Below, one piece after another: positions 51,829 to 57,089 of a stretch of 64,000 nt of DNA. Source of the DNA: Eledone cirrhosa (lineage: Eukaryota). The notes beneath the pieces were generated by a model. It did no database searches and was not told where the DNA came from. It worked only from the letters and a program-made list of their open reading frames with translations. Numbering within the stretch: the stretch's first letter is position 1; each line of letters opens with the position of its first letter. The position numbers were made by a program, and so were the translations under genes. Location of the stretch: the NCBI GenBank assembly GCA_964016885.1, contig OZ024743.1, positions 23,498,001 to 23,562,000 on the forward strand, written 5' to 3'.

Positions 51829-51866
51829 CCTTTACCGGTTTCGCAGTTCTTCTGCTTTTCAAAAGG
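51829..51866 (-). ncRNA. 38-nt minimal hammerhead with a U3:A8 variant core
   Basis: Minus strand cctt-TTGAAAA-gcag-aagaa-ctgc-GAAA-c-cg-g-TA-aagg. Confidence 0.75.
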
Positions 51867-54800
51867 TGAGTTGAGATGGAGGGTCTGTGGTTTTTCTCAC
51901 ATCTGGTTGGTCTCTGAATGTTACTTGTTTTATATGGAAAAAGTGGCTCGAAATGCCAGGTTTTTCGAGAAGTAATTTGATTGGTTTGTCAATAATTATA
52001 ATAAATTTCGCGCCAGTTCGCGTTACAATAGTTCTTCAAATAAGAGGGGGGGGGGGTTGTCACAGGTTGTTTTTTCATATATGAGTGTTTGAATTTCTTT
52101 TTACTTGAAAAAAGGGGCTCACGAAGGTTTTTTTTTTGGTTGGTTATAAATGAAATTATGGCTGTCACGTGAACAAGTTTTCATTAAATTTTCGTGTCCT
52201 TATTTGGAAATCCATACTGTAGCCTTTTTAGAGAATTTTATAAGTGAAAGATAATGGTCAAGAGAAAGGGATGGGAGAATTGTTCTGGTTCAGTGAATAT
52301 GGTTAGTTCGCTGGGGTGTCAGAATTCAGATTTTCTATTGAATAAAGAAAGTAAAGATATGTATGTTTATTTGTGTGCTTGTGTGTGTGTGCGTGTGTGT
52401 GTGTGTTGTGTGTGTGTGTGTTTGAATTTCTTTACTTAAAAAAAGGTGGCTCACGAAGGCTTTTTTTTAATAAACGTGATTTGATTGGTTATAAATGAAA
52501 TTTGGCTGTCACGTGAACAAGTTTTCATTACATTTTTGCGCCCTTATTTGGAAATCTATTCTGTAGCCTTTATAGAGAATGTTATGACAAGGGAAAGATA
52601 GTGGTCAAGAGAAATGGGATGGGAGAATTGTTCTGGTTCAGTGAATATGGTTAGTTCGCTGGGGTGTCAGAGTTCAGATTTTCTATTGAAGTAAAGATAT
52701 GTATGTTTATTTGTGTGCTTGTGTGTGTGTGTGTGTGTGTGTGTGTGTGTGTGTGTGTGTGTGTGTGTGTGTGTGTGTGTGTGTGTGTGTGTGTGTGTGT
52801 GTGTGTGTGTATTGGAAGATGATTCTATTAGTAGAAATGGGGGAGGGAGTTGTGTGTGTGTGTATATGGGTGTTATGTGTGTGTGTGCGAGTATGTTAAG
52901 ATGGAGGGAATATATATTTTGTGTGTGTGTATATATGTGTGTAGGAAAGTGGTTCTATTAGTAGAAATGGGGGAGGGAGTTGTGGGTGTGGGGGTTGTTA
53001 TGTGTGTGTATGGGTGTTATGTGTGTGGTAGTATGGTTAGCATGTTAAGATGAAGAGAATATATATATATATATATATTGTGTGTGTGTGTGTGTGTGTG
53101 TGTGTGTGTGTGTGTGTGTGTGTGTGTGTGTGTGTGTGTGTGTGTGTGTGTGTGTGTGTGTGTGTGTGTGTGTGTGTGTGTGTGTGTGTGTGTGTGTGTG
53201 TGTGTGTGTGTGTGTAGGAAAATGATTCCTTTAGTAGGAATATTTTTGAATGAACATATTTTCCTTACTTATTCGTATTTGTTCTGTTGTATTGTCAGTG
53301 CAAACGTATGTTAAGGTTTATTTAGTTCGGGTTTTTATTTTCTAAAGTAGAAGGTGTTATGTGTGTGTGTGTATGTCATATTATGGTGTTGACATAATGT
53401 ATATTAAACCATATTTAATGCTGGTCTATATTTTTGAATAAACATATTTTCCTTATTTATTCGTATTTGTTCTGTTGTATTGTTAGCGCAAAGGTAAAAT
53501 GGGAAGACTTGGAATTTGGGTGTCTTATTACTTGCGCAAATGTCTAGATGTGCACTTAGTGGTATCTGTCTCGTGGTTGGATCTCGTAATTGTTGGCGAT
53601 GAACTGTCATTCTGTTTCTGAGTGTGAGTTTAGTTTGTCCTATATAATCTTCATTGCATCCTTTACATTTAATGGCATAAATTAGATTTTTTGATGAGCA
53701 AGTGAAGTGATTTTTTACAGTAAAATTTTGTCCTGATTTAAATGTATACGTGTTGCCTTCAATGAGGTGGTGCAGGTTCCACAATTAGAGCGACCACATT
53801 TTTTGATACTTGGTTGAGGGTTTGTGGTAGGTAATTTGGCATTGGTGAGTAATGTTTTCAGTGATTTTGGTTGTCTTTTGCTTTTGATTATTTTGTGTGT
53901 TTCAAGGGCTTTTTTCATTCTTGGGTTTTGTTTTAGTAGTGGGATGTTCTTGTGAATAGTGTTGTAAGCTTCCGCATTTCTTGGGTTGTGTGTTGAGATA
54001 TATGATAGAATATTGGACGTACCTTGAATTTGTTTCTGTGTTTCCGTAATTCATCAATGCCTATTGCTTTAGCCCTTTCTATTCCATTATTTATTAGTAA
54101 TAGTGGGTACTCTCTCTCGAGTAGAATTTCCTTTAATTCTTGAAGTCTTTTATTTCGCGTTTCATAATTGGAGACAATTGTGCAAATTCTTCTTGCTAGG
54201 TTAAAAAGAATGTTCGTCTTCGTGTGCTTTGGATGGTTGGAGGTGAATAGCAGATATTGTTTGGAATCTGTTGGTTTGTAGTGTATGTCAGTTTCGATAT
54301 TTGTGTCTTTTTTTAAGATTAAGATGTCCAGAAATGGGAGTTGATCTTGGCTGTATTCCATTATGAATTGGATGTGGTTATTGATGCCGTTTATTAAGTT
54401 TTTGAAATCCTTCAGTTGGTCGAGTGTGTGGGACCAAAGAATGAGGCAATCATCCAAGTAGCGTTTCCAATTCTCTGATAAATATTTGTGGAAGTTCAAT
54501 CCGTATTTTGATTTGGACTGTTCATATATCTGGACTTCTAAGTATGCCATGACTAAGTTGGCATAAGTTGGAGCGGCTTTTGTACCCATCGCAGTCCCCG
54601 ATATTTGCTTGTAAGTATTGCCATCGAAATCAAAAAAGTTGTTCTATAAGATGAATTTTAATCCCTCGGTGATGAAGCTTTTTTCTATTCTGTCAGGTAT
54701 CTCATTGGGATATTTCTCTAGCCAGAATCCTATTGCTTCTAGTCCGTATTGGTGTGGGATCGTTGTGTAGAGATTCACTACATCGAAAGACACAATAATA

Positions 54801-56311
54801 GTGTCGTTGTTGACATGTTTGGGGAGGTGGTTTAAGAGGTCCAGATCGTCTCTTACAAGGCTTGGTATGTGTTTCAGTATTGGTTACAGTAGTATGTCTA
54901 TAAAGTTGCTCAGTCTGTGTGTTTCACATTGTGGGCCCGCTACAATTGGTCTTAATTTAAGGTCTGTGGGGTATTGTGTGTTCACGCAGGCTGAGGTGGA
55001 TTGTTTACAGGCATCGTTGATTATTTTACACTTGTGGATCTTCGGAAGTCCGTAAAGGTTGCTGGTTTTGTATTCAAAATTTGTTAAATAATCGCGTTCC
55101 TTTCTAGTTAGGTCTTCCTGGTATCGATAAATCAGTGTGTTTAATTTGGTCATTATTTTTGATTGCTGGTAGTTTTTTACTCTTTCATAGTAATTAGTAT
55201 TTTGTAAGAGAGAGAACATAGAATTTTTATATTATTCAGCCTCCATAATGACAACAGTACTTCCCTTGTCCGCTTCCTTAATTATAATGTCCGTATTGTT
55301 TTTTAGTTCATGGATAATCTCCCATTCCCTTCGACTCGTGTTGGGTTTGGGTTTAGGTTGCGGTAGTTCATGGTATGGGAAGGTAGCTATGTGGTCACAA
55401 AATTTGTCCAGAACTCTGTTTCTACCTTTTGTTGGGTTGTAGCTGCTTTTATTCCGTACAATTGATTCATCGTTATTCTCCTTGTCAAAGAATTCCTCTG
55501 TGAGACGTAATTTTCTACAGAAGTGTGAGATATCGTCATTTATCTCATTGGGGTTAGAGTATTGTGGTGTTGGTGTGAATTTCAGTCCTTTGGAGAGAAT
55601 GTTTACTTGTTGGGCTGAGAGGTTTGTATTTGAAAGGTTAATTATTTTCGGTTTTTCAAAATCGGTTAGTGCCACCGGGTGTCGTGAGTCCTGTAGCCTT
55701 GGTCTAAAAAAATGATTTTTCTGGAATGTTTTTTCAATGGTATTATTATATATCTAATGGTATTTCCCCTGTTGTTGTGTGGTCTTGTATAGAAGTTTCG
55801 GACGTATTGAGATTCGGTTTGTTGATAGTCCGGGTTGTAGATTTTGTTCCTTTGTGTGGGTTGGGATCTACGGTTTTGGAACAGGCCCTGTGTGGGCAGG
55901 GGTATACGGTTTTGGTATAGGTTTTGTGTGGGTTGTGATCTGCGGATCACATATATATATATATCACATATATATATATATATCACATATATATATATAT
56001 CACATACATATATATATATCACATATATATATATCACATATATATATATATATCACATACATATATATATATCACATATATATATATCACATATATATAT
56101 ATATATATATATCACACACATATATATATATATCACATATATATATATATGTGTGTGTGTGTGTGTGTGTGTGTGTGTGTCTGTGTGTGTGTGTGTGTGT
56201 GTGTGTGTGTGTGTGTGTGTGTGTGTGTGTGTGTGTGTGTGTGTGTGTGTGTGTGTGTGTGTGTGTGTGTGTGTGTGTGAGAAAAACCACAGACCCTCCA
56301 TCTCAACTCTA

Positions 56312-56347
56312 CTTTTGAAAAGCAGAAGAACTGCGAAACCGGTAAAG
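56312..56347 (+). ncRNA. Second copy of the U3:A8 minimal hammerhead, in the inverted pLTR
   Basis: ctt-TTGAAAA-gcag-aagaa-ctgc-GAAA-ccgg-TA-aag. Confidence 0.72.
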
Positions 56348-56549
56348 GAACCAAATAAATATATATATTTTTTTTTAAATAAGACTTCAGTTGCATTTTC
56401 GATTTCATCTTTTTTTCTTTATACTTTCACTCGTGTAGGACACCTCGGTTATTTTTCATTTTGTAAAAAAAACCTCACTCTCTAATATAAATATATATAT
56501 ATATATATATATATATACATATATATATACATATATACATATATATATA

Positions 56550-56775
56550 TTACACCAAACAGATCCCATAAAGTTCAAGAGGTCTTTGGACAAATTCCTT
56601 CAAGAAATCCCGGATGAACCCCCTACACACGGATATGTCTCCGCAAACAATAACTCCCTTCTTGAGTGGGCAATGGTGCCCAAATCCTGATTTGAAAGAC
56701 TTCACCAAGTGGTGCTATTAAGTTAGACATGACCTGGGCCAATACTGGCCAAAACCTATCAAAGTCATCAAAGTT
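56550..56775 (+). mobile_element. CR1/L2-group LINE 3' end
   Basis: KFKRSLDKFLQEIPDEP..NSLLEW followed by a short (atcaaagt)2 tail. Confidence 0.7.
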
Positions 56776-57043
56776 ATATATATATATATATATATATATA
56801 TATAGAGAGAGAGAGAGAGAGAGAGAGAGAGAGAGAGAGAGAGAGAGAGAGAGAGAGAGAGAGAGAGAGAGAGAGAGAGAGAGACAAAAGGTGAAGTTGG
56901 AAATAACGCGTAAAATATATTTTAGGGTCTGTTTTTCTTTTTTTTCTTTGATTCGTCAAAGTGACATTATTGAAAATATGAGAGGGATAATTCTTTTTAA
57001 AAAAAGTTTTATAATGTATATATAGTATATAAAAGTATATAAA

Positions 57044-57089
57044 GTATTACCCGTTTCGATGTATTATTAAAATTCATCTTATCAAATGT
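57044..57089 (-). ncRNA. Hammerhead-like motif with a UUGAUAA (U3:A8) core and weak stem I
   Basis: Minus strand at-TTGATAA-gatg...catc-GAAA-c-gg-g-TA-at. Confidence 0.55.

What the first reader, a model, noticed from the sequence alone, without database searches (positions are those of the whole stretch)
51829..57089. Penelope hammerheads with a compensatory U3:A8 catalytic core (UUGAAAA / UUGAUAA)
Seen: both pLTR copies of the 51567-56490 element carry a 36-38-nt hammerhead fold whose first core box is UUGAAAA rather than CUGANGA. A different terminal sequence at 57044-57089 has UUGAUAA. A decayed tandem copy lies at about 51693-51727. Known: positions 3 and 8 form a tertiary Watson-Crick pair, and the U3:A8 swap can retain cleavage. 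Penelope-type minimal hammerheads have a tiny palindromic stem III (here ACCGGU) and are thought to cleave as dimers. Inference: this lineage fixed a covariant core that CUGANGA-based searches would miss.
Basis: partly seen in the sequence, partly recalled or inferred. Interest (0 to 1): 0.7.

Follow-up and report, generated by a model that had tools for sequence, protein, structure and literature searches.

The report
Penelope hammerheads with swapped core pair
These are real hammerhead-type RNA motifs at the ends of very abundant Penelope-type jumping genes, predicted to cut their own RNA only in pairs; their U-A core swap is already in print, and the one addition is that related elements likely flipped between the U-A and the usual C-G pair several times.

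Summary
U3:A8 is the family state, not decay: 12,333 exact genomic copies, against 0 with C3:G8, 56 with C3/A8 and 25 with U3/G8. Two related families (B, E) share it with different, compensated stems. The swap is known: natural U3-A8 hammerheads (PMC3088659) and about 1,300 in Schistosoma Penelope elements (PMC4209133). Corrections: the two pLTR copies are inverted, so one transcript cannot carry both; the 57046 motif is a decayed copy of a separate family, not the end of the adjacent ORF; the tandem copy is an older fragment. New here: beside related reverse transcriptases from other organisms, 17 distinct motifs have C3:G8, 13 U3:A8, 1 a mismatch, and the tree rejects one U3:A8 clade (p 1.4e-5), so the pair likely flipped repeatedly. 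Cleavage is untested: no RNA run is listed, and copy breakpoints do not pile up at the predicted cut (7 of 70, p 0.12). This scan has noted U3-A8 Penelope hammerheads before, in this genome and others. Verdict: new member of a known kind.

The parts
51567..51728 (-).
51729..51756 (.). (TA)n run joining the intact pLTR's short 3' end to the older fragment
51757..51903 (-). Sense 3' pLTR of the family-A element, ending at the short 3' end
51829..51866 (-). Family-A minimal type I hammerhead: stem I CCUU/AAGG, core UUGAAAA (U3 = 51862), stem II GCAG/CUGC, palindrome ACCGGU; predicted cut between 51833 and 51832
51904..53403 (-). 3' untranslated region of the element with internal duplications and (CA)n runs
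   Evidence: upstream matches
53404..55950 (-). Broken, 5'-truncated ORF: RT, CX4CX2C linker, C-terminal GIY-YIG endonuclease; stop codons and frameshifts
   Evidence: L124 shows the missing N-terminal part
55951..56274 (.). Microsatellite spacer between the truncated body and the inverted pLTR
56275..56487 (+). Inverted 5'-truncated pLTR, starting at the common 5' point about 40 nt before U3 and ending at the long 3' end, followed by (TA)n
56312..56347 (+). Second family-A hammerhead (U3 = 56315), 3-bp stem I, antisense to the ORF; predicted cut between 56344 and 56345
56879..57290 (-). Family-B pLTR insertion with an inverted arm (fold-back 57104-57281) that stops before its own hammerhead
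57046..57087 (-). Family-B hammerhead UUGAUAA (U3 = 57085), stem II GAUG/CAUC; this copy has a broken palindrome ACGGGU and a 2-bp stem I
57304..58500 (+). Broken RT-region fragment of a family-A-related element (87% DNA identity to element 1), not the family-B ORF

Best explanation
The motifs are minimal type I hammerheads in the pseudo-LTRs of endonuclease-bearing Penelope-like retrotransposons, with U3:A8 as the family state in place of C3:G8, and they are predicted to self-cleave slowly and only as dimers, likely helped by the element's protein. Shown: sequence, copy numbers, position in the pLTR, head-to-head layout, two 3' ends, covariation of positions 3 and 8 across related elements. 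Inferred: in full-length head-to-tail copies, RNA starts about 40 nt upstream of the motif; two motifs pair through ACCGGU to build stem III, each cutting the other after GUA; the cut trims multimeric or read-through RNA about 150 nt upstream of the start codon. Most inserted copies were likely made from uncut RNA, since they keep the motif whole. The window's own element is broken, and its two intact motifs lie on opposite strands. The 3:8 pair is likely kept as a Watson-Crick pair by selection on the active master copies and has likely flipped between C:G and U:A several times among these elements.
For: Family state: 12,333 U3:A8, 0 C3:G8, 56 C3/A8, 25 U3/G8 with the same stems. Families B (516 exact) and E (most of the 100 listed rows of 3,378) keep U3, A8, G10.1-C11.1, GAA and ACCGGU while stem II changes on both sides (GCAG/CUGC to GAUG/CAUC), and N7, H17 (A, U, C), loop II and stem I differ; their proteins are 52-61% (E) and 46-53% (B endonuclease pieces) identical to A. 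The pattern fixed only the first pair of stem II, so E's 5-bp stem is not built in. In 124 related RT loci (601,589 bases), with any base allowed at 3 and 8, 30 of 31 distinct motifs are Watson-Crick (17 C:G, 13 U:A, 1 C/A); shuffles gave 0.2. Dimer folding of the left motif gives stems I, II and intermolecular III: -22.5 against 2 x -7.5 kcal/mol; the double-hammerhead fold scores -21.1, the monomer hammerhead fold -0.4. Papers: U3-A8 active in vitro and natural (PMC3088659 passage); Penelope motifs cut as dimers at low rate (PMC4209133); protein-assisted cleavage and uncut RNA as main substrate (PMC11167929).
Against: No cleavage datum for these motifs. Breakpoints of truncated family-A copies are flat around the predicted cut: 7 of 70 exactly at it (p 0.12), 14 of 70 within the 3 compatible positions (p 0.35); family E shows no peak either (6 of 100 listed rows, read by eye). 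Close same-strand pairs are rare: among the first 100 exact copies, 22 neighbouring pairs within 6 kb are head-to-head and 1 is same-strand. Stem I is only 2-4 bp and no loop I-loop II contact was identified. The unconstrained dimer folds of the other copies do not form stem I. In a lizard element, core mutants did not impair insertion in vitro. The tree is a quick one, and labels assume each motif travelled with its ORF.
Confidence: 0.75

Rival explanations
1. The fold is kept for a non-catalytic job, such as binding the element's protein, promoter or 5' UTR structure, or RNA dimerisation through ACCGGU, and it does not cut in vivo.
For: No pile-up of copy ends at the cut site; thousands of copies keep the motif whole; low or protein-dependent cleavage and no need for it in vitro; PMC8557442 raises the idea that these motifs may simply parasitise the elements (passage).
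Against: The 3:8 pair is a contact of the catalytic fold, and it stays Watson-Crick in 30 of 31 distinct motifs; H17 varies only among A, U and C in families A, B and E, whose patterns did not fix it.
Confidence: 0.17
2. U3:A8 is a degenerate, inactive core that drifted in through AT-biased mutation of a master copy and was carried along.
For: AT-rich, microsatellite-rich DNA; both changes are C>T and G>A transitions.
Against: Held across families whose proteins are only about 50-60% identical while neighbouring stems and loops changed; single-mismatch states are at point-mutation level in this clade (88 C3/A8 copies with ACCGGU in all); U3/G8 was seen in 0 of 31 related motifs.
Confidence: 0.05
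3. U3:A8 arose once, and its scattered place on the RT tree comes from exchange of pLTR modules between families or from mis-paired motifs and ORFs in tandem arrays.
For: These elements insert next to one another; L322 and L333 hold motifs of several families; in the window a family-B pLTR abuts an A-like ORF.
Against: Motif architecture follows the RT tree: the clade with the window's element (L270, L271, L304, L342) lacks the extra base after A9 and has, or can form, 6-nt palindromes, whichever pair it carries. L320 (U:A) and L327 (C:G) have the same motif on both sides of the ORF.
Confidence: 0.25

Closest known systems
U3-A8 minimal hammerheads of Schistosoma mansoni Cercyon Penelope-like elements (Cervera and de la Pena 2014, PMC4209133; parts 1-2 of 4 read, supplements not read)
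   Same: Type I minimal motif in the pLTR, U3-A8 core, palindromic stem III, dimer model, most copies solitary or in opposite-strand pairs.
   Different: Here helix II is 4-5 bp rather than 7-8, there is no extra base after A9, the palindrome is 6 nt, and the copy number is about ten times higher (over 12,000 exact against about 1,300). Kinship of the proteins with Cercyon was not tested.
Natural U3-A8 hammerhead variants (Perreault et al. 2011, PMC3088659; passages read)
   Same: Same compensatory swap, described as natural and previously shown active in vitro.
   Different: Those were found as several scattered examples; whether any has a stem III this short was not read.
Neptune/Nematis-type endonuclease-bearing Penelope-like elements (as described in PMC8557442 and PMC3846280; passages read)
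   Same: RT with C-terminal GIY-YIG, CX2-5CxxC linker, inverted 5'-truncated pLTR, optional tail, microsatellite targets.
   Different: Neptune and Nematis could not be told apart without reference sequences; long 3' region (about 1.5 kb) between ORF and pLTR.
PAc Poseidon element of Anolis (Frangieh et al. 2024, PMC11167929; parts 1-2 of 4 read)
   Same: Two reverse-transcription start sites downstream of the hammerhead that give the tail; uncut RNA as main template; AT-rich targets.
   Different: C3-G8 core overlapping the start codon; here the motif lies in the 5' UTR and the two ends are about 65 nt apart.

Membership tests
Type I hammerhead ribozyme | Core U4 G5 A6 N7 A9, G12 A13 A14, A15.1-U16.1, H17 | tested here: met
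Type I hammerhead ribozyme | Watson-Crick pair between positions 3 and 8 | tested here: met
   U3:A8 in 12,333 copies; mismatches 56 and 25; covariation in relatives
Type I hammerhead ribozyme | Stems I and II with G10.1-C11.1 | tested here: met
   Left copy 4+4 bp, right copy 3+4 bp; the 57046 copy has only 2 bp in stem I
Type I hammerhead ribozyme | Loop I-loop II tertiary contact of fast, extended hammerheads | not tested
   No closed loop I was seen by eye in the aligned copies; no dedicated test
Type I hammerhead ribozyme | Self-cleavage after H17 | not testable with these tools
   Needs an assay; the indirect breakpoint test was flat
Penelope minimal hammerheads (PMC4209133) | Located in the pLTR of a Penelope-like element | tested here: met
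   Downstream of the GIY-YIG domain and upstream of the ORF in tandem copies L124, L096, L098
Penelope minimal hammerheads (PMC4209133) | Short palindromic stem III that favours a dimer | tested here: met
   ACCGGU; dimer folding. Broken in the 57046 copy
Penelope minimal hammerheads (PMC4209133) | Extra nucleotide between 9 and 10.1 and a long helix II (usual in that paper's motifs) | tested here: not met
   A9 is followed directly by G10.1; helix II 4-5 bp. The nearest RT relatives also lack the extra base, so this is a sub-type, not the paper's consensus form
Endonuclease-bearing Penelope-like element, Neptune/Nematis type | RT followed by C-terminal GIY-YIG | tested here: met
   GIY-YIG E 1.1e-7, above cut-off; RVT_1 E 0.0024, below cut-off on a fragment; 584 homologues of the family-E RT region at E<=1e-30
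Endonuclease-bearing Penelope-like element, Neptune/Nematis type | CX2-5CxxC linker before the endonuclease | tested here: met
   CX4CX2C in the translation of 53715-54050 and in family E
Endonuclease-bearing Penelope-like element, Neptune/Nematis type | Inverted 5'-truncated pLTR and optional tail | tested here: met
   22 head-to-head pairs among 100 copies; 16 long, 9 short, 5 other 3' ends of 30
Endonuclease-bearing Penelope-like element, Neptune/Nematis type | Placement in the Neptune or the Nematis clade by RT tree | not tested
   No named reference sequences were in the tree
Non-LTR retrozyme | Short non-coding tandem repeats each with a hammerhead | tested here: not met
   The motif is tied to a coding element; close same-strand pairs 1 among 100 copies

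The most novel reading that the evidence does not exclude
U3:A8 is not a rare exception but a second standard state of Penelope hammerheads: the catalytic 3:8 pair has flipped between C:G and U:A several times independently along the retroelement tree and is almost never left mismatched. That would be evolutionary evidence that the catalytic fold is under lasting selection in these elements, and that CUGANGA-only surveys miss a large share of them.
Probability: 0.6. Interest if true: 0.45.

Novelty: new member of a known kind. Interest (0 to 1): 0.28.

Why it matters
The swap itself is known, so the finding as written adds a host and a very large copy number. The by-product matters more: whether Penelope hammerheads do anything is open (PMC8557442, PMC11167929), and repeated compensated flips of a catalytic pair argue for selection on the active fold. 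Families A, E and the canonical family C in one genome give a natural set for comparing U3:A8 and C3:G8 cores, and descriptors limited to CUGANGA should be widened.

Tried and rejected
Rfam scan of 48000-64000 at E<=10: 67 matches, none to a hammerhead family, also none for the canonical 51115 motif. Sequencing runs: no RNA holder listed; the 4 of 6 runs laid were contigs, which cannot show RNA ends; they show related DNA under two further organism codes and no common other letter at positions 3 or 8. Cleavage scar, a lead from earlier notes: of 712 pattern matches, the first 100 were fetched; 97 distinct sites, 27 dropped as slips or point mutants with the motif continuing, 70 junctions, flat. 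Family E: 100 of 137 rows read by eye, 6 at the site, about 29 ending 4-7 nt downstream. An amplified C3/A8 family with ACCGGU: none, 88 copies, nearly all point mutants of A, B, E; other stem III types were not searched. A canonical sister family with ACCGGU: 134 matches against 177 for the reversed control, mostly family D, which lacks a clean stem II. The idea that the 57046 motif ends the 57304 ORF: rejected. No full-length family-B ORF was found in the 13 long stretches fetched around B motifs, so B is absent from the tree. MAFFT misaligned stem II, so no formal pair count or covariance model was made. The careful tree did not finish; quick trees are reported. Lunse et al. 2017 and Przybilski and Hammann 2007 are not held; they are known only through citing passages. 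Supplements of PMC4209133 were not read and may list further U3-A8 families.
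Full report
Observation. The window is from a 3.0-Gb animal genome. A scan of both strands for hammerhead cores with three stems gave four motifs: 51829-51866 (-) and 56312-56347 (+) with UUGAAAA, stem II GCAG/CUGC and palindrome ACCGGU; 57046-57087 (-) with UUGAUAA; and a canonical CUGAAGA motif at 51115-51169 (+). The decayed copy at 51693-51727 is present.

Anatomy. [quoted passage not shown] Its sense pLTR (51757-51903) ends at a short 3' end in a (TA)n run. The other pLTR (56275-56487) is inverted and ends about 65 nt further on, at a long 3' end. 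Across 30 genomic copies the 3' ends were 16 long, 9 short, 5 other, and 16 of 30 5' ends fell 32-43 nt upstream of U3. Among the first 100 exact copies, 22 neighbouring pairs within 6 kb are head-to-head and 1 is same-strand. This is the inverted-pLTR-plus-tail layout of PMC3846280 (passages) and fits the two reverse-transcription starts of PMC11167929. L124 shows the full head-to-tail form, with the motif in the 5' UTR and an ATG shortly after the long end. The 'tandem copy' is a more diverged fragment without a stem I 5' strand or an intact stem II. It could still serve as substrate strand for the intact motif in cis (ACCGGU/ACUGGU, CCUU/AAGG; -26.0 against -28.9 kcal/mol for the free fold), a local curiosity in a dead copy. 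The 57046 motif belongs to family B: B-linked endonuclease pieces are 46-53% identical to element 1, while the ORF fragment beside it is 87% identical in DNA to element 1. This copy has lost its palindrome.

Is U3:A8 the family state? Yes. With family-A stems the genome holds 12,333 U3:A8, 0 C3:G8, 56 C3/A8 and 25 U3/G8 exact matches; reversed controls gave 0. Family B has 516. A looser pattern gave 3,378 non-A matches, most listed rows being a third family, E, whose protein is 52-61% identical to A and whose pLTR is about 70% identical to B. Core, G10.1-C11.1 and ACCGGU are constant while stem II changes on both sides and N7, H17, loop II and stem I vary. No amplified mismatched family with ACCGGU was found. 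The genome also has canonical families: C has 3,343 matches and a distant RT. These patterns are not a census of all hammerheads in the genome.

What is known. PMC3088659 reports natural C3-G8 to U3-A8 covariation and cites earlier in vitro activity. PMC4209133 reports U3-A8 in Schistosoma Penelope elements with about 1,300 hits, opposite-strand pairs, and weak dimer-only cleavage; it was the only paper holding both 'hammerhead' and 'U3-A8'. Searches for hammerhead with cephalopod or octopus listed no description of these families; subscription papers and supplements were not seen. Earlier notes of this scan report U3-A8 Penelope motifs in at least 12 genomes, this one included.

What is added. 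Using an alignment of 30 related proteins I fetched 124 loci from metagenome and MAG contigs and scanned them with any base at 3 and 8 but with stems and a palindrome required. Of 31 distinct motifs, 17 were C:G, 13 U:A, 1 C/A, none U/G; shuffles gave 0.2 per run; all but one lay on the ORF strand. An RT tree of 29 rows (1 of 30 dropped for coverage) needed 6 changes, 5 forced by strong branches. A stricter set of 19 rows (only motifs directly downstream of the ORF; 5 upstream-labelled rows, 5 near-duplicates and the short row left out) needed 5, with 3 forced, and the AU test rejected a single U:A clade (p 1.4e-5). The window's element, an older relative (L122) and family E form one U:A clade (99%) whose nearest sampled sister, L271, is C:G. 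Direction cannot be read without a root, the trees are quick ones, many rows come from one host assembly, and pLTR exchange could mimic the pattern, though motif architecture follows the RT clades. A search of earlier notes for this point found nothing.

Mechanism. Folding favours the dimer: the monomer hammerhead fold of the left motif scores -0.4 kcal/mol, the double hammerhead -21.1. The likely working form is two motifs, from tandem full-length copies or from two transcripts, paired through ACCGGU and cutting after GUA, slowly and probably with help from the element's protein, as shown for a lizard element. None of this is shown here. No RNA run was listed. The indirect test was negative: among 70 junctions within 17 positions around the predicted cut, 7 fell exactly at it (p 0.12) and 14 in the three compatible positions (p 0.35); family E showed no peak by eye. 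So most copies came from uncut RNA, and the 'cleavage scar' that some earlier notes report was not seen for these two families in these samples.

Verdict. A real, family-wide U3:A8 hammerhead motif in Neptune/Nematis-type Penelope elements; a new member of a known kind. The repeated compensated flipping is a modest, testable addition. Interest 0.28.

Noticed in passing
window 51115-51169 (+): Canonical CUGAAGA hammerhead of another Penelope-like family (C; 3,343 pattern matches, long stem II, palindrome AUAUAUAU, distant RT), 660 nt from the U3:A8 motif; a natural comparison partner.
   Followed up: partly
L061-L078, L107 (G000 C1): Family D: head-to-head repeats with CUGAUGA ... GAAACCGGUC but no clean stem II; in some copies GAAACCGGU is locked in a 10-bp hairpin. 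Possibly a degenerate or refolded hammerhead.
   Followed up: partly
L096, L098, L099, L108: Family E: about 4.8-kb head-to-tail units with U3:A8 and GUC cut triplet; L099 holds an open 777-aa RT-endonuclease frame, so the family is young.
   Followed up: partly
L334 1390 and 5437; L308 884: Near-identical motifs with C3/A8 and U3:A8 in one assembly that also has related C3:G8 motifs; may be an intermediate state or a point mutant.
   Followed up: no
L342-L389: Penelope-like RT genes, some with hammerheads, lie in contigs filed as bacterial genomes; likely host DNA in the bins.
   Followed up: no
L154; joints: Some copies have the hammerhead deleted so that the two stem I strands are joined, as expected from template jumping across the fold.
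   Followed up: no
L402-L407 (G000 C1 348.86-348.91 Mb): Six C3/A8 family-A motifs spaced about 9.6 kb apart, likely a segmental tandem duplication of one mutant copy.
   Followed up: no
window 10949-12100: 29-bp tandem array of about 40 copies.
   Followed up: no
window 49524-50081 (-): Fragment of another Penelope-like ORF resembling the C-terminal RT region of family C.
   Followed up: no
window 59620-59810 and 60990-61150: Copies of a dispersed short repeat also found at 992-1137, 25022-25158 and 31098-31281; looks like a SINE (label recalled, not tested).
   Followed up: no
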